A stretch of 46,956 bases of DNA from Bacteroidales bacterium (GTDB lineage: Bacteria > Bacteroidota > Bacteroidia > Bacteroidales > UBA932), in NCBI GenBank assembly GCA_024402005.1, contig JAKSJV010000001.1, positions 1-46,956 on the forward strand, given 5' to 3'. Position numbers and translations under genes: made by a program. Shown here one piece after another: positions 11,561 to 45,327 of this stretch (its first letter is position 1; every line of letters begins with the position of its first letter). The notes beneath the pieces are model-generated. The model saw nothing but the letters and a program-made list of their open reading frames with translations. It had not been told where the DNA came from and searched no databases.

Positions 11561-14500
11561 ATGAAATTCAATTTCAAAATACAACAATACCAGACGGATG
11601 CAGTTGAGAATACCGTAAGTGTTTTCACCGGTCAGCCGTCCCGGGACAATACGCTGTATCGCAGGGATCTTGGAAAGAAAGTTCAAGGAACTATCACCTA
11701 TGACGAGGACTATTCCGGATATCGCAATACAGACATCGAGCTCACCGACGCTCAACTTTTCGAAAAGATAAGGACTCTGCAAAGCGCACAGGACATCCCT
11801 GAATCGAAAGCACTCTCCCACGACCTTGGCCGCGTTGGGCTGGATATTGAGATGGAGACCGGTACCGGCAAGACTTATGTCTATATCAAGACAATGTTCG
11901 AGCTTAACAAACGTTACGGCTGGAGCAAGTTCATAGTCGTGGTGCCAAGTATCGCAATCCGTGAAGGTGTCTATAAAAGCTTCTGCGTACTTGAAGATCA
12001 CTTTATGGAGCACTATGGCAAGAAGGCCAGATTCTTCATCTACAACAGTTCCAACCTGCAGCAGCTGGATTCCTTCTCTTCAGATGCCGGCATCAACGTA
12101 ATGATCATCAATACGCAGGCGTTCGCGTCGTCATTGAAGGAAGGAGCCAAGAACAAGGAGAGCCGCATCATCTATTCCGAACGAGACGACTTTGGCAGCC
12201 GCAAGCCTATCGACGTATTGGCAGCCAACCGGCCTATCATCATTATGGATGAGCCGCAGAAGATGGAAGGCGAAGCAACCCAGACGGCTCTCAAGAGGTT
12301 TAAGCCTTTATTCGTGCTCTACTATTCCGCAACCCACAAGACCAGTCATAACTGCATCTATGCTCTCGATGCATTGGATGCTTACAAGCAGAAACTCGTC
12401 AAGAAGATTCAGGTGAAAGGCTTCGAGGTGAAAAACCTCAAAGGTACAAGTTCATACCTGTATTTAGACGACATTATCCTTTCAAAGAACCAACCTCCTC
12501 AGGCAAGAATCGAGTTGGAGGTAAGTGGCGTTTCCGGTATCCGGAAAGAGTCGCACAGGTTTGATTTGCACGATACCCTACAGGCGACATCCGGCTTGGC
12601 TCAGTATGACGGATTCACAATTTCCGAAATCGATGCATATAGGGATAGCGTTACCTTCCTCAACGGAGTAACTGTCCGCAAAGGAGAAGTCTATGGCGAC
12701 AGCAGCCTGATTGCTATGCAGCGTGTTCAGATACGTGAGACCATCGCTTCCCACTTTGAGAAAGAGCATGAACTGTTCAAGCAAGGTATCAAAACTCTGT
12801 CCCTGTTCTTCATTGACGAAGTGGCCAACTACAAGAGCTACAACAGCGAAGGTGAAGAAGTTCACGGACCGTTCTGGAAGATATTCGAAGAGGAGTACAC
12901 CAATTACCTCAACGACAATCTTACTCTTTTTGATGACTCATATCAGGCATATTTACGCAGATTTGATGCATCGCAGGTTCACAACGGGTATTTCTCCATT
13001 GATAAGAAGACCGGTCGCTCGATTGACTCTGAGACCAAGCGCGGAAGTGACCTTTCGGATGATATCAGCGCTTACGAGCTTATCCTGAAGAACAAAGAAA
13101 GGCTTCTGAGTTTTGATGAGCCTTGCCGCTTCATATTCTCACACTCCGCATTGCGCGAAGGTTGGGACAATCCCAACGTGTTCCAGATTTGCACTCTGAG
13201 GCACGCAAGTTCGGCTGTGGCAAAACGCCAGGAAGTTGGTCGAGGCTTGCGCCTATGCGTGGACCAGTCAGGAAACAGGATGGACTTTGAGGAGCTGGGC
13301 GACAATGTTCAGGAGGTAAACAAACTGACGGTCATCGCGAATGAAAGCTACAAAGACTTCGTGGATGGTCTCCAGAAGGAGACAAGAGAAGCGCTGCGCG
13401 TCAGGCCGACAAAAGCAGATACTCTATTCTTCCAAGGCAAAGTTGTTGAACGCGACGGCATTAAGACTACAATTGACCCTCAGGAGGCCGTGATGATTCA
13501 CTCTTATCTGATTGCCTATGGGTATGTCGATAAGAACAATAAGATTACCCAGCTTTACAAAGATGACAAAAATAACGGGACACTTCAACCTATGTTCCCT
13601 GGCCTTGCTCCGATAGAGTCTCAGGTTCACACCATCATACAGTCTCTGTTTGACGAAAGTGTCGTACTTGATGAAATGATTGAGGACGGCCACGCCACAA
13701 CCATTCAAGAGAATAAACTGAATGAGAATTTCAAGAAGAAAGAGTTCCAGGCACTGTGGAAAGAAATCAATCAGAAGTATGTCTATACCGTTCATTACGA
13801 CAGTGAGGAGCTTATCCGGAAGGCCATCACATCCATCAATGCTAATCTGATGGTTACTGAGCTGAAATACATAATGACAAGTGGAGACCAGGAGTCTGTC
13901 GATGAGTTTGGAAACCTTTCCACGAAGACAAAAACTTTGAGCACGGTCAGCACATCTTCAGTAAGATACGATCTTGTTGGCGAGATTGCACGAAGGACGA
14001 CATTGACCAGGAAGAGTGCCTGCGCTATTCTGAAAGGACTGAGGCCGACTGTTCTGTCCAAATTCAACAACAATCCGGAAGAGTTCATCAGGGAAGTCAG
14101 CAAGCTCATCAAGAATGAAAAGGCCACAATGATTGTGGAGCATATCAAGTACAACAAGCTTGACGAGACATACGATAGCGACATCTTTACGCAGGAAAAG
14201 AGTTCTCAGCCTATTTCAAAGGCGTATCTTTCTTCTAAAGCAATTCAGGACTACGTATTCACTGACGGATACGCTGAAGAAAGCACTGAAAAGAAATTTG
14301 CAAAGGCTCTTGATGCAGCATCTGAGGTATGCGTGTATGCGAAACTTCCACGTTCATTCCAGATCCCTACGCCGGTAGGTAATTATTCTCCGGACTGGGC
14401 GATTGCATTCAACCAAGGCACAGTTAAGCACATATATTTCATTGCGGAAACAAAAGGATCGATGGATTCGATGCAGATGAAAAAGGTTGAAGATGCAAAA

Positions 14501-14608
14501 ATAAAATGTGCAGAAAAACTATTCAATTATATGCCATCATCAAATGTGCGCTATCACGAAGTGGACAGTTATGAAAAGTTAATCGACGTTATGAAGAATA
14601 TAGACTAG
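11561..14608 (+). CDS. res: Type III RM restriction subunit
   Basis: IEMETGTGKT, IMDEPQ, YSATH, LREGWDNPN, QEVGRGLR and C-terminal YSPDW...IAETKG nuclease motif. Confidence 0.95.
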   Translation: MKFNFKIQQYQTDAVENTVSVFTGQPSRDNTLYRRDLGKKVQGTITYDEDYSGYRNTDIELTDAQLFEKIRTLQSAQDIPESKALSHDLGRVGLDIEMETGTGKTYVYIKTMFELNKRYGWSKFIVVVPSIAIREGVYKSFCVLEDHFMEHYGKKARFFIYNSSNLQQLDSFSSDAGINVMIINTQAFASSLKEGAKNKESRIIYSERDDFGSRKPIDVLAANRPIIIMDEPQKMEGEATQTALKRFKPLFVLYYSATHKTSHNCIYALDALDAYKQKLVKKIQVKGFEVKNLKGTSSYLYLDDIILSKNQPPQARIELEVSGVSGIRKESHRFDLHDTLQATSGLAQYDGFTISEIDAYRDSVTFLNGVTVRKGEVYGDSSLIAMQRVQIRETIASHFEKEHELFKQGIKTLSLFFIDEVANYKSYNSEGEEVHGPFWKIFEEEYTNYLNDNLTLFDDSYQAYLRRFDASQVHNGYFSIDKKTGRSIDSETKRGSDLSDDISAYELILKNKERLLSFDEPCRFIFSHSALREGWDNPNVFQICTLRHASSAVAKRQEVGRGLRLCVDQSGNRMDFEELGDNVQEVNKLTVIANESYKDFVDGLQKETREALRVRPTKADTLFFQGKVVERDGIKTTIDPQEAVMIHSYLIAYGYVDKNNKITQLYKDDKNNGTLQPMFPGLAPIESQVHTIIQSLFDESVVLDEMIEDGHATTIQENKLNENFKKKEFQALWKEINQKYVYTVHYDSEELIRKAITSINANLMVTELKYIMTSGDQESVDEFGNLSTKTKTLSTVSTSSVRYDLVGEIARRTTLTRKSACAILKGLRPTVLSKFNNNPEEFIREVSKLIKNEKATMIVEHIKYNKLDETYDSDIFTQEKSSQPISKAYLSSKAIQDYVFTDGYAEESTEKKFAKALDAASEVCVYAKLPRSFQIPTPVGNYSPDWAIAFNQGTVKHIYFIAETKGSMDSMQMKKVEDAKIKCAEKLFNYMPSSNVRYHEVDSYEKLIDVMKNID

Positions 14609-15699: not shown

Positions 15700-16533
15700 A
15701 TGGAAGATAAGAAACAAGGCTACGTTTATATTCTAACAAATCCTTCATTCAAAGAGGATTGGGTTAAGATTGGGAAAAGTTCTCGTCCAGTAGATGTCCG
15801 TTCAAAAGAATTGGACAACACGGCTGTTCCGCTTCCATTTGAGATCTATGCGACAATGCGCACCGCTAAATATTCCGAGGCGGAAAAGCTTATCCATCGG
15901 TTCATAGAAACTTTAACAAGCCTGCGTATCAGAGACAATCGTGAGTTCTTCAATTTAAAGCCCGAGAAGGCACTTGAAATATTTAGACAAGTGGCTAGCA
16001 TTCTTGACGATGCTGTGGTTGAAGAAGTGCACAATTCGCCTATGAGAAAAATAGAAAATGTCATCGCTCCGAAACCAGAACGCAGAGTTACTAGATCATC
16101 TATCATGAGTGGAGGCAATAGTTGGATGATTCCCGCAAACCCCAACTTCTTCGATGTGGACGGATGCCTGAATAAGTTTGGTATGGTCTATTGGAGGCAA
16201 CATTATAATTTTCAAACTGGTGACATTGTTTATCTCTATGTTTCCAGTCCGGTATGCTCGCTGCGATATAAATGTATAGTTGAAGAACACGACCTGCCTC
16301 ACTCGCCTATTGTTGAAATTGATAAGGAATTCTTCGTAAAACAAAGCGATTTTGCGACGACAAGAAATCATAATCGCTACGTGAAACTTACTCTGCTGGA
16401 CACATCCTATTCTGAAATGCTGAATCTTCACAATCTTTTGGCACACGGTATGAACAGTGCACCACAAGGTTGTATAAATCTTTCGCAAAATAAATTTTCT
16501 CATCTATTGGAATATATTGAGAATAATTTTTGA
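15700..16533 (+). CDS. GIY-YIG (T5orf172-like) nuclease fused to a C-terminal EVE/PUA-like domain
   Basis: GYVYILTN, VKIG, NREFF; C-terminal WMIPANP..FD...W....GDIVYLYVSSP...YKC.V. Confidence 0.75.
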   Translation: MEDKKQGYVYILTNPSFKEDWVKIGKSSRPVDVRSKELDNTAVPLPFEIYATMRTAKYSEAEKLIHRFIETLTSLRIRDNREFFNLKPEKALEIFRQVASILDDAVVEEVHNSPMRKIENVIAPKPERRVTRSSIMSGGNSWMIPANPNFFDVDGCLNKFGMVYWRQHYNFQTGDIVYLYVSSPVCSLRYKCIVEEHDLPHSPIVEIDKEFFVKQSDFATTRNHNRYVKLTLLDTSYSEMLNLHNLLAHGMNSAPQGCINLSQNKFSHLLEYIENNF

Positions 16534-16543
16534 CATGGATTTA

Positions 16544-16669
16544 GCGGTGCGCCCAGCGAGGCAGACCAAATTATTTTTCGAGGCGGGCGGTTTCCAACGA
16601 AGCGAAGCGAAGTGCCAGAAACCGGGGCCCCGGGAGAAAAAAATTTTCGGTCTGCGAGCCAAGCACCGC
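16544..16669. mobile_element. Structured palindromic element, copy A (intergenic)
   Basis: Terminal IR GCGGTGC/GCACCGC, inner stems GCAGACC/GGTCTGC and CGGTTTC/GAAACCG; both 34-nt arms match the copy at 44583-44735 at 33/34. Confidence 0.8.
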
Positions 16670-16711
16670 CCTACCATTTGAATAACTGGACAATATAAAT
16701 AGCAAAATAAT

Positions 16712-43543: not shown

Positions 43544-43846
43544 CTATTTGTCGGATTTTTTGAGCAGGTCCGTGTTCTTCTTGCCGTATGCTTCTCCTCT
43601 CGGCACAAGGTATTTGAAAAATACACAGTCGTCGACTATCTCGATATGAAAAATGAAGAATGCACGGAGGCTTCCGATGCGGATGCGATAGACGTGTTCA
43701 AATCCGACAAGCTTCTTGCAGTCGGTGATTTCTTCAAGACTTGATGCGTTCTTGACCTCCAGAATGGTGTTCCGAACGGAATTCAGCGTCTTGCCGGAGA
43801 GTCTGCGTACCGATTTCTCAAACTCCTTGGAGTATTTTGTTCTCAT
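43544..43846 (-). CDS. RelE/ParE family toxin
   Basis: YSKEFEK, KKLVG, YRIRIGSLR, PRGEAY. Confidence 0.85.
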   Translation of the reverse strand: MRTKYSKEFEKSVRRLSGKTLNSVRNTILEVKNASSLEEITDCKKLVGFEHVYRIRIGSLRAFFIFHIEIVDDCVFFKYLVPRGEAYGKKNTDLLKKSDK

Positions 43847-44094
43847 ATTCCCAACCAGTTCTCGAAGTCTTCCGTTTCCTGATCATTCAGCGCAATGTTG
43901 CCATCGGGTCGTGCATTGCAGAGATACTGATAAGTGGCGGCCTCGTTCATATCCTCAACGTCCTTCTCAAGAAGGGTCTCGATGTAGTTCTTGAGGTTTG
44001 TTCCGGATGCGGCGGCCTTTATGGAAAGGAAATGAAAGACGTCCTCGCGGATATCGATATTCTTTCTTTTGGTCCTGAGAGCAACAGTGTTCAT
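43843..44094 (-). CDS. Ribbon-helix-helix-type antitoxin
   Basis: RKNIDI...LSIKAA..GTNLKNYIE; acidic C-terminus; overlaps the toxin start; TATATTTG box at 44114-44121. Confidence 0.8.
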   Translation of the reverse strand: MNTVALRTKRKNIDIREDVFHFLSIKAAASGTNLKNYIETLLEKDVEDMNEAATYQYLCNARPDGNIALNDQETEDFENWLGI

Positions 44095-44157: not shown

Positions 44158-45327
44158 TTATTTTTGGCGGTATTTGGTGTTTTCTTCCAGCATTCCGAGA
44201 TAGGAATTGTAGCGGTCGGCGCTGATGCGGCCTTCATCCACGGCCTTTTTCACCGCACAGCCAGGCTCGTGGGTATGGGTGCAGGGGGTGAAGCGGCAGC
44301 CCTGGCTTTCCCGTAGCATTTCGGGGAAATACAGGGCGATTTCTTCGGGCTGGAGGTCCAGCAGGCCGAAACTCCTGATGCCTGGGGTGTCTATGATGAA
44401 GCCTCCGCTCTGCAGCGGGTACATTTCGTAAAAAGTCGTGGTGTGTCTGCCTTGCAGGTGGCTGAGTGATATCTGCGCGGTTTTCGGGTTGAGGCTCGGG
44501 TCCAACGCCTTTATGAGCGACGATTTCCCCACTCCGGACACTCCCGACAACAGGTTGATTCCGGTCTCAAGACTGGACTCACCCGGTGCGTCAGCGAGGC
44601 AGACCAAACTATTTTTCGAGGCGGGACCGACGGGCTTAAGCCCTGCTGCTCGGGCCGAAAGCATCAAAATGCTTTCTGTGGACCCACTCGCGACCCGGGA
44701 GAAAAAAGTTTTCGGTCTGCGAGCCAAAGCGCCGGTGCAATCGGGGTTTTGACACCCTGTGGCTGTGTAGATGAAGCTCCCGGCGAGAGCCTGGCGCAGG
44801 GCGTCGATGCCCTCGCCTGTTTTGGCGGAAGTTTCGATTATGTCATAGCCCGCAAGACGGCCGTAAGTGTCGTGGAATGCGGCAATCAGGTCATCTGCGC
44901 CTGCCTTGCGCAGCAGGTCGATCTTGTTCAGGACTATGGTGACGTGCACGCCGTACACCTCGCAGGTCACCAGCAGACGGTCCAAGAAAGGCAGTTTCAC
45001 TTCGGGAAAGGCAAGTGTCACCACCACGAAGGCCCTGTCTATGTTCGACGCTATGATGTGGGCCTCGCGGCTCAGGTTGGTGCTTTTGCGTATCACGTAG
45101 TTGCGGCGCGGAAGCACCTCGGTGATTATCGCTGGATTGGATTCTGATACGTCGTCAGGCACTTCGCAAAGCACATTGTCACCAACGGCGACAGGGTTGG
45201 TCGCAGTAGATTTCTGCAGACGGACCTTGCCCCGTATCACCGCTGGAAACAGTTCCCACGCGGGCAGTATGCTCAAAAGATAATGGCTGCCCGTATGTTT
45301 TACTACTGTCGCCTGAACGTTTTTCAT
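44158..45327 (-). CDS. rsgA: Ribosome small subunit-dependent GTPase A with ~72-aa in-frame insertion
   Basis: OB fold with VGD, NKID (G4), TSA (G5), GVSGVGKS (G1), GRHTT, DTPG, CRFTPCTHTHEPGC zinc site. Confidence 0.95.
   Translation of the reverse strand: MKNVQATVVKHTGSHYLLSILPAWELFPAVIRGKVRLQKSTATNPVAVGDNVLCEVPDDVSESNPAIITEVLPRRNYVIRKSTNLSREAHIIASNIDRAFVVVTLAFPEVKLPFLDRLLVTCEVYGVHVTIVLNKIDLLRKAGADDLIAAFHDTYGRLAGYDIIETSAKTGEGIDALRQALAGSFIYTATGCQNPDCTGALARRPKTFFSRVASGSTESILMLSARAAGLKPVGPASKNSLVCLADAPGESSLETGINLLSGVSGVGKSSLIKALDPSLNPKTAQISLSHLQGRHTTTFYEMYPLQSGGFIIDTPGIRSFGLLDLQPEEIALYFPEMLRESQGCRFTPCTHTHEPGCAVKKAVDEGRISADRYNSYLGMLEENTKYRQK
44583..44735. mobile_element. Structured palindromic element, copy B (inside rsgA)
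   Basis: Arms 44592-44625 and 44694-44727 match copy A at 33/34 each; different centre with hairpins GGGC-TTAA-GCCC and GAAAGCAT-CAAA-ATGCTTTC. Confidence 0.85.

What the first reader, a model, noticed from the sequence alone, without database searches (positions are those of the whole stretch)
44563..44778. The palindromic element is inserted in-frame in rsgA, adding ~72 aa just before the G1 motif
Seen: LRQALAG is separated from GINLLSGVSGVGKS by SFIYTATGC...ESSLET (216 nt, no stop). The insert contains the whole of copy B, read antisense. All GTPase and zinc motifs are intact, and CCGG flanks both ends (44561, 44780), which is weak evidence for a target duplication. Known: in RsgA the post-G5 helix leads directly into the G1 strand, and Rickettsia palindromic elements are the precedent for repeats translated inside conserved genes. 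Inference: an RPE-like coding-compatible element in Bacteroidales, either translated as a surface loop or removed at RNA or DNA level.
Basis: partly seen in the sequence, partly recalled or inferred. Interest (0 to 1): 0.82.

Follow-up and report, generated by a model that had tools for sequence, protein, structure and literature searches.

The report
Flipped hairpin repeat inside rsgA gene
A small hairpin-shaped repeated DNA element sits in frame inside the ribosome-assembly gene rsgA and at least seven other housekeeping genes of this gut bacterium, and close relatives carry the same insert back to front yet still in frame, so it is likely selfish DNA read as a harmless floppy protein loop, as known from Rickettsia.

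Summary
Observation confirmed. rsgA (44158-45327, minus strand) carries 72 extra stop-free codons just before G1, made of a nested hairpin repeat found at 26 loci in this genome; 9 lie in frame in recognisable genes. [quoted passage not shown] Flipping that allele in place would give three stops; the window allele avoids them through a 16-nt net loss and a 4-nt gain. A third form (P0003) lost 87 nt, again in frame. Host codons show dN/dS 0.07, and AlphaFold leaves the insert disordered on an intact RsgA fold. No empty or spliced joint was seen. Best reading (0.8): Rickettsia-RPE-like selfish DNA, likely translated as a tolerated loop, not spliced or excised. CCGG marks the inversion breakpoints; a target duplication is unproven. 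The mobiliser is unknown; a RAYT-like HUH protein is a weak candidate. Seven literature searches found no description for Bacteroidales, but this scan has noted the same phenomenon in at least 15 other genomes.

The parts
44158..45327 (-). rsgA, 389 aa, small-subunit biogenesis GTPase carrying the in-frame insert
44563..44778 (-). 72-codon stop-free insert between the post-G5 helix and the G1 strand (boundary uncertain by about one codon); predicted disordered (residues 185-251, pLDDT below 50)
44561..44564 (.). CCGG at the G1-side junction; inversion breakpoint region
   Evidence: opposite-strand joints 44560/44564 to 44783/44779, 4 letters fit both sides
44560..44577 (.). small quasi-palindrome (7 of 8 pairs) found only in the window-type allele; likely a local fold-back rewrite that replaced one terminal repeat
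   Evidence: origin inferred
44590..44625 (+). family-1 left arm, shared with copy A and other copies
44627..44696 (+). 70-nt core module with two hairpins; found in 21 of 400 other genomes of the genus; second hairpin covaries
44694..44731 (+). family-1 right arm
44617..44703 (.). 87-nt hairpin apex that is missing, in frame, in allele P0003 and skipped by a contig of run X3
44737..44779 (+). right arm and terminus of a second repeat family (also in rsmG, folC, the FAD oxidoreductase and intergenic copies); shortened by 16 nt net relative to allele L040
44776..44783 (.). 8-bp arm ending in CCGG; in the opposite-orientation allele it forms a perfect terminal inverted repeat with the other end
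44521..44544 (-). G1 (P-loop) motif, G262-S269, intact
44257..44298 (-). zinc-binding motif C344-C357, intact
16545..16670 (+). copy A: intergenic family-1 element with a different interior

Best explanation
The insert is one copy of a nested hairpin repeat family that lies in frame inside rsgA and other housekeeping genes, and it is likely selfish non-coding DNA that is translated as a disordered, tolerated loop rather than spliced or excised. Steps: (1, inferred) a family-2 element entered the permissive loop after the G5 helix and a family-1 element with the core replaced its interior, giving the 76-codon sense allele that is common among relatives; (2, shown as a difference, order inferred) the whole composite inverted in place between its own 8-bp terminal repeats, likely by template switching or recombination during replication; (3, shown by calculation) that inversion alone reads three stops, and the window allele carries a 16-nt net loss and a 4-nt gain that put the core in its only stop-free antisense frame; (4, inferred) the inverted allele arose once and spread between strain backgrounds by homologous recombination; (5, inferred) selection acts as a filter that keeps only frame-preserving versions in loops the protein can spare.
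For: 26 loci in G000, 21 of them 100 bp or longer; 9 in frame in genes with family matches: rsgA, glxK, truB, murG-murC linker, wbqC, rsmG, folC, rnr, an FAD oxidoreductase. For 8 of these an orthologue comparison shows a clean in-frame gain of 32-110 residues. No family was split across any other locus whose flanks were scanned. Opposite orientation at the same site: L040, P0004, joints in 7 of 8 runs from 7 studies. In-place inversion of L040 gives 3 stops. Further in-frame remodelling: P0003 lacks 29 residues; FolC P0007 is 39 residues shorter than P0006. dN/dS 0.066 on 317 host codons. AlphaFold: core mostly pLDDT above 90, insert below 50; TM 0.83 to RsgA 7boi_W normalised by target. The same loops hold unrelated inserts in other genomes (folC G194; FAD oxidoreductase G161, G365; truB G307). 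Orientation does not follow host relatedness: P0004 (sense) differs from the window protein at 4 of 317 flank residues, P0003 (window type) at 11.
Against: No peptide or activity data: translation is inferred. Low pLDDT is expected for any unaligned insert and proves nothing about tolerance. The element's DNA is far more conserved than a neutral loop should be (5 differences in 198 nt between window and L040, against 0.28 at host synonymous sites), which needs recombination or DNA-level selection as an added step. The divergence also falls towards the insert on the 5' side (10 to 1 per 60 nt), fitting recombination but not proving it. No empty allele from a close strain was found, so boundaries and insertion chemistry are unknown. 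The frame count is subject to survivor bias. G000 is a 72% complete assembly; a second rsgA could be missing.
Confidence: 0.8

Rival explanations
1. The insert is removed from the RNA (self-splicing or protein-assisted), so normal RsgA is made.
For: Long stem that brings the ends together in the sense allele; covarying hairpin in the core; DNA conserved beyond synonymous sites.
Against: Both orientations occur at one site, and one folC insert holds modules in both orientations; all length changes keep the frame, which splicing would not need; no Rfam family at gathering or useful E-value; both RNA runs hold junctions with the element and no skipping joint (contigs only, low depth, DNA carry-over not excluded).
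Confidence: 0.05
2. The element is a live, reversible intragenic inverton that switches RsgA between a full-length and a stop-truncated or recoded form.
For: Two orientations in strains whose flanks are 94-99% alike; 8-bp perfect terminal repeat (12 of 14) in the sense allele; its flip would stop translation before G1, while the window allele is open either way round.
Against: No run lists joints of both orientations; depth over 44559-44575 in X2, X14, X16 and X20 is explained by the sense form alone; the window allele keeps only 4 bp of the repeat and has extra indels shared with P0003, which points to one old event. Contigs drop rare variants, and X3 holds an 87-nt skip like P0003's, so a mixture there is not excluded.
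Confidence: 0.1
3. The element excises from the DNA under some condition and restores the empty gene.
For: CCGG at both ends 219 nt (73 codons) apart would leave an in-frame site; a HUH tyrosine transposase-like gene sits beside core copies.
Against: No empty joint in 6 DNA-type and 2 RNA runs; the resulting spacing of 23 is rare (1 of 71); copies lack shared terminal repeats.
Confidence: 0.03
4. The window allele is an assembly artefact at a repeat, or rsgA is a decaying gene.
For: Fragmented assembly; no listed contig spans the whole insert; a chimera through this repeat exists (P0002); a possibly misassembled truB duplicate lies between copies.
Against: X1 contigs cross both junctions exactly; P0003 has the same two ends in a host 11 residues different; dN/dS 0.066 and all motifs intact.
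Confidence: 0.02

Closest known systems
Rickettsia palindromic elements (RPE; Ogata et al. 2000, Abergel et al. 2006, as summarised in PMC2229807, passages read; primary papers not read)
   Same: 100-200 bp stem-loop repeats, both intergenic and fused in frame in conserved genes; truB is a shared target (PMC3733652 section 15); for Rickettsia gmk the insert is translated and the enzyme active.
   Different: Free-living gut Bacteroidales, not an intracellular alphaproteobacterium; modular nested structure; each copy has its own flanking stem; in-place inversion with compensating frameshifts between close strains; sequence homology to RPEs not tested.
Intragenic GTAG/CGTC REPs and REP dimers (Di Nocera et al. 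2013, PMC3733652, passages and section 15 read)
   Same: In-frame in unrelated genes, thought neutral in linkers and loops; many copies just after stop codons; some families sit inside other palindromes.
   Different: Much longer units; no 20-40 bp REP with a GTAG foot; the CGTC at the family-1 left end is not followed by the 8-9 bp stem and 4-5 nt loop of CGTC REPs.
REPIN-RAYT systems / TnpA(Y1) class 2 (Quentin et al. 2018, PMC6006769, passages and sections 12, 17 read)
   Same: A HUH-plus-tyrosine protein (N75-H76-x-H78, Y134, 58 residues apart) is flanked by two inverted core copies in G000; Bacteroidetes subclasses are described with atypical flanking structures and with in-frame REP insertions.
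   Different: The protein has Y-x-x-x-N-G instead of the class-2 Y-x-x-x-N-P, is about 306 aa and matches no Pfam or NCBIfam model; 0 of its 29 closest homologue loci carry the core.
Intragenic invertons (Chanin et al., PMC10028968, passages read)
   Same: A segment inside a gene flanked by inverted repeats occurs in two orientations, recoding it or adding stops.
   Different: Here the inverted segment is a multi-copy repeat, the orientations are seen in different populations and not within one, and one allele has lost the repeat; no invertase identified.
Template switching between short inverted repeats (Abraham and Hazkani-Covo 2021, PMC8604942, abstract and outline seen)
   Same: Gives arm homogenisation and spacer inversion in coding DNA, the two changes seen here.
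   Different: Described in yeast for short native repeats; here a 220-nt inserted element in bacteria.

Membership tests
RPE-like coding palindromic repeat (works like) | Multi-copy 100-200 bp stem-loop repeat in one genome | tested here: met
   26 loci, 21 of 100 bp or more; covarying hairpin; whole-insert folding z only about -2
RPE-like coding palindromic repeat (works like) | Copies both between genes and in frame inside conserved genes | tested here: met
   9 of 26 in frame in recognised genes, 16 outside genes, 1 ending a truncated truB duplicate
RPE-like coding palindromic repeat (works like) | Insert lies in a loop and leaves the fold intact | tested here: met
   Predicted only: helix 174-182, disordered 185-251, strand 257-262; RsgA fold recovered
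RPE-like coding palindromic repeat (works like) | Protein is made with the insert and is active | not testable with these tools
   Needs proteomics or assay; indirect support from dN/dS and frame conservation
RPE family proper | Occurs in Rickettsia and is homologous to RPE-1 to RPE-10 | tested here: not met
   Host is a Bacteroidales (relatives' record titles); sequence homology to RPEs was not tested
REP/REPIN-RAYT | Short REP with GTAG or CGTC foot at a small hairpin | tested here: not met
   No such unit in the copies printed against the definition in PMC3733652
REP/REPIN-RAYT | Cognate HUH-Y1 gene flanked by the repeat | tested here: inconclusive
   2 of 3 RAYT-like genes of G000 and 3 of 28 other core loci are adjacent; 0 of 29 closest homologue loci have the core; 18 of 21 core-bearing genomes versus 272 of 400 overall have the protein
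REP/REPIN-RAYT | Candidate protein has the HUH motif, catalytic tyrosine and TnpA(Y1) fold | tested here: met
   Invariant H76, H78, Y134; profile hit to ISDra2 transposase E 0.02; top fold matches are ISDra2, 4er8 and IS608, all with E above 0.001
REP/REPIN-RAYT | Class-2 signature Y-x-x-x-N-P | tested here: not met
   Consensus Y-x-N-R-N-G against PMC6006769
Classical MITE | Shared terminal inverted repeats and a target-site duplication | tested here: inconclusive
   Flanking stems differ from copy to copy (own 5.5 versus cross 3.3 bp, permutation p 0.002, 8 copies); no close empty rsgA allele to define a duplication
Intragenic inverton | Inverted repeats flank the segment | tested here: inconclusive
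   8 bp perfect in the sense allele, only CCGG in the window allele
Intragenic inverton | Both orientations within one population | tested here: inconclusive
   0 of 8 runs list joints of both kinds, but contigs drop rare variants
Intragenic inverton | Site-specific invertase | not tested
   No search made
Self-splicing intron or IStron | Match to a catalytic RNA family | tested here: not met
   Rfam: only tRNAs in the window at gathering; three chance hits at E 0.13-1.3
Self-splicing intron or IStron | Fixed orientation relative to the host transcript | tested here: not met
   Both orientations at this site

The most novel reading that the evidence does not exclude
A selfish hairpin repeat has built a working genetic switch inside a ribosome-assembly gene: the common sense allele flips between its own terminal repeats at a measurable rate and cuts RsgA off before the P-loop in part of the population, the window allele is an escape that re-opened the frame, and a divergent Bacteroidales HUH tyrosine enzyme drives insertion and rewriting of these elements genome-wide.
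Probability: 0.1. Interest if true: 0.78.

Novelty: new variant of a known kind. Interest (0 to 1): 0.5.

Why it matters
It extends 'selfish DNA inside genes' from Rickettsia and scattered REP cases to a large genus of animal-gut Bacteroidales, where about a third of the copies in this genome sit in housekeeping genes. This locus is a natural experiment: four protein forms (72, 76, 76 and 43 extra residues) put unrelated peptides from opposite strands into one loop and all keep the frame, which is strong indirect evidence that such inserts are translated and filtered only for frame and position. The recurrent hits map insertion-tolerant loops in RsgA, FolC, TruB and RNase R. The open questions it makes testable are what mobilises these elements and why their DNA is conserved beyond synonymous sites. 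The appeal is tempered by the known precedent and by the scan having met the phenomenon in many other Bacteroidales genomes.

Tried and rejected
Rfam at gathering and by E-value: nothing relevant. Exact patterns for the core and for family 1 in viral contigs: 0 matches each. Insert against plasmids: no match. DUF559, a lead from an earlier finding: no match in G000, 72% complete. Search of earlier findings by sequence and in this genome: nothing. Metagenome and genome scans with RsgA gave no close strain with an empty site: of 71 distinct loops only the window and L040 match the repeat; of 80 genome loci 56 could be measured and 24 were missed by the pattern, and only the L040-type record has the long loop. 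I first took G161 for a sister species; rejected, because its other genes are only 72-79% identical to G000 and it has a second, empty rsgA, so contig L040/L070 is likely a mis-binned piece of a closer relative. The idea that the element created the murG-murC fusion was rejected: three relatives have the fusion without it. RNAalifold alone recovered only the first hairpin; the second was named by hand and counted. Single-sequence search of the candidate transposase against solved structures gave nothing. Protein searches with insert peptides returned only 3, 1 and 2 proteins; they are weak for short queries, so the family's reach outside close strains is not measured by them. The small shares of RNA runs X19 and X20 are not evidence of expression level.

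Full report
Observation. The ORF at 44158-45327 (minus strand) is RsgA by Pfam, NCBIfam and solved structures and the only RsgA over the cut-off in G000 (72% complete). Between LRQALAG and GINLLSGVSGVGKS lie 72 stop-free codons. The T(SA)-to-G1 spacing is 96, against 24 in 39 of 71 distinct relatives' loops, 41 in 19, and up to 59 in others; only the window and L040 loops match the repeat. So the loop is permissive in this genus, and the insert is not an ordinary long loop. Relatives' record titles point to Candidatus Cryptobacteroides, Bacteroidales (genus inferred). Contigs of run X1, probably the source and so not independent, cross each junction without a mismatch.

Anatomy. The insert is a composite: family-1 arms (44590-44625, 44694-44731) around a 70-nt two-hairpin core (44627-44696), then the right arm of a second family (44737-44779). 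Iterated search finds 26 loci in G000. The core is in 21 of 400 other genomes of the genus (only two candidate places per genome were scored). Over 33 copies its second hairpin changes on both sides at 6 of 8 pairs; 0 of 500 shuffles reach the paired fraction, and slid controls fall to 25-54% (relatedness and my hand-drawn structure inflate this). Family-1 copies pair better with their own flanks than with other copies' flanks (5.5 versus 3.3 bp, p 0.002, 8 copies found by fixed patterns). Whole-insert folding is only about 2 SD better than shuffles. Rfam has no match.

Other genes. Nine loci are in frame in recognisable genes: rsgA, glxK, truB, the murG-murC linker, wbqC, rsmG, folC, rnr and an FAD oxidoreductase. 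Against orthologues without the element the gains are +56 (murG-murC), +110 (folC), +32 (truB), +52 (oxidoreductase), +32 (rnr), +37 or +43 (rsmG) and +62 (glxK, one distant orthologue); wbqC ends at a contig edge and could not be compared. One locus ends a truncated truB duplicate. For 14 of the other 16 loci one or both flanking ORFs were scanned and no family is split across a copy (one reference was dropped for a frame error); two were judged from ORF layout only. If inserts were spliced out, about two in three could shift the frame; 8 of 8 do not, though survivors are all we can see. The same loops carry different hairpin-like inserts in other genomes (folC in G194, the oxidoreductase in G161 and G365, truB in G307), and truA of G307 carries a family-2 copy in frame.

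The flip. A search of 400 genomes found one contig (L040, 89-94% identical over rsgA) with the same composite at the same site, reversed and in frame for 76 codons. It is held in G161 but is likely from a closer relative, since G161's other genes are 72-79% identical and it has its own empty rsgA. Protein P0004 has this sense form in a host that differs from the window's at 4 of 317 residues. Seven of 8 runs laid (X2, X3, X4, X14, X16 and RNA runs X19, X20; 7 studies) show the opposite-strand joint at 44560/44564 to 44783/44779; none of the 8 shows a joint that skips the insert (8 of 20 listed runs were laid, all as contigs). The sense allele has both family-2 termini and an 8-bp terminal inverted repeat, so it is likely ancestral. 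Inverting it in place gives three stops; the window allele differs from that inversion by an 18-to-2-nt replacement and a 19-to-23-nt replacement, net minus 12, which puts the core in its only open antisense frame. P0003 has the window-type ends and lacks 29 residues, the 87-nt apex also skipped by a contig of X3. FolC shows the same kind of in-frame remodelling (P0006 versus P0007). P0003 is further from the window than P0004 is (11 versus 4 residues), so orientation does not follow the host gene; one inversion spread by recombination is the simplest account (inference).

Function of the host gene. Between the window and L040, dN/dS over 317 codons is 0.066. AlphaFold gives an intact RsgA with residues 185-251 below pLDDT 50 between helix 174-182 and strand 257-262; low confidence is expected for any unaligned insert. 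Whether the loop faces away from the 30S subunit was not computed.

Result against a purely neutral reading. The element differs at only 5 of 198 aligned bases between the two alleles, far below host synonymous divergence (0.28) and below the coding average (p 0.0005), although it is read from opposite strands. Recent allele exchange, overwriting by other copies, or selection on the DNA structure could each explain this; I could not separate them.

Mobiliser. A 306-aa protein on C138 lies between two inverted core copies. It has no Pfam or NCBIfam match but invariant H76, H78 and Y134, a weak profile hit to ISDra2 transposase, and Y1 transposases including 4er8 as top fold matches, none at E 0.001 or better. 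Core copies lie beside such genes in 2 of 3 cases in G000 and 3 of 28 other loci, but 0 of the 29 closest homologue loci carry the core, and the family is in 272 of 400 genomes anyway. I put it at about one in three. mtaB is empty in G000 and joined to the element in P0002, which suggests recent mobility, though P0002 is a chimera that runs on into antisense rsgA.

Comparison. It works like Rickettsia RPEs and intragenic REPs (PMC2229807, passages; PMC3733652, passages and section 15) but is not a member of either family. Inversion and stem extension fit template switching (PMC8604942, abstract). It resembles intragenic invertons (PMC10028968, passages) but reversibility is not shown. Seven searches (listings and abstract starts seen) found no description of in-frame palindromic repeats in Bacteroidales; the library lacks most subscription papers and supplements were not read. 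The scan's own notes list 16 such findings in at least 15 genomes, several with flips and excess conservation (unchecked notes, seen after my reading was recorded).

Verdict. Real; a new variant of a known kind; likely translated as a tolerated loop (0.8); interest 0.5.

Noticed in passing
window 43544-44094 (minus strand): Two small genes between rsgA and the MATE gene look like a ribbon-helix-helix antitoxin (weak Pfam Omega_Repress, E 0.0015) and a RelE/ParE-type toxin (recalled resemblance, no Pfam hit); the pair is absent in contig L070, where rsgA runs straight into the MATE gene.
   Followed up: partly
L074 (G000 C2:9226-11031): Tandem partial duplication of truB bounded by three element copies: a truncated 5' copy ends in an element and a stop, followed by a full copy with an in-frame element; recombination between copies or misassembly.
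   Followed up: partly
L075 (G000 C2:16430-19069): murG and murC are fused in one 880-codon frame; the fusion is also in G161, G365 and G194 without the element, and split in G307 and G182.
   Followed up: yes
P0002; G000 C97:10415 onward: An mtaB-like N-terminus joined through the element to antisense rsgA sequence; mtaB is empty at that site in G000.
   Followed up: partly
L088:2905-3843, L126, L127: A RAYT-like HUH family with no Pfam or NCBIfam model, three copies in G000 and present in 272 of 400 genomes of the genus; the C138 gene is also flanked by its own ~100-bp direct repeats with a hairpin.
   Followed up: partly
L255, L256 (G161, G365), L245 (G194), L252, L268 (G307): Different hairpin-like in-frame inserts at the same loops of the FAD oxidoreductase, folC, truB and rnr in other species: recurrent insertion at permissive sites.
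   Followed up: partly
L117 (G322), L098 (G307): Core module in frame in a 679-codon ORF that looks like a glycoside hydrolase (recalled, not scanned), and a family-2 copy in frame in truA.
   Followed up: no
L078 (G000 C78:1-150): The copy in wbqC is flanked by a 17-bp perfect inverted repeat inside coding sequence, which suggests the stem rewrote host codons.
   Followed up: no
G161 contigs C46 and C39 (L070, L069): One assembly holds two syntenic rsgA-ispA regions, 85-94% and 75% identical to the window; likely mis-binning.
   Followed up: yes
window 11561-14608 and 15700-16533: A 1015-aa ORF resembling a type III restriction subunit (recalled, not scanned) and a T5orf172/MUG113 protein directly upstream of copy A.
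   Followed up: no
L015, L157-L198 and others: A clade of relatives has a conserved 17-residue extension (spacing 41) in the same RsgA loop, unrelated to the repeat.
   Followed up: partly
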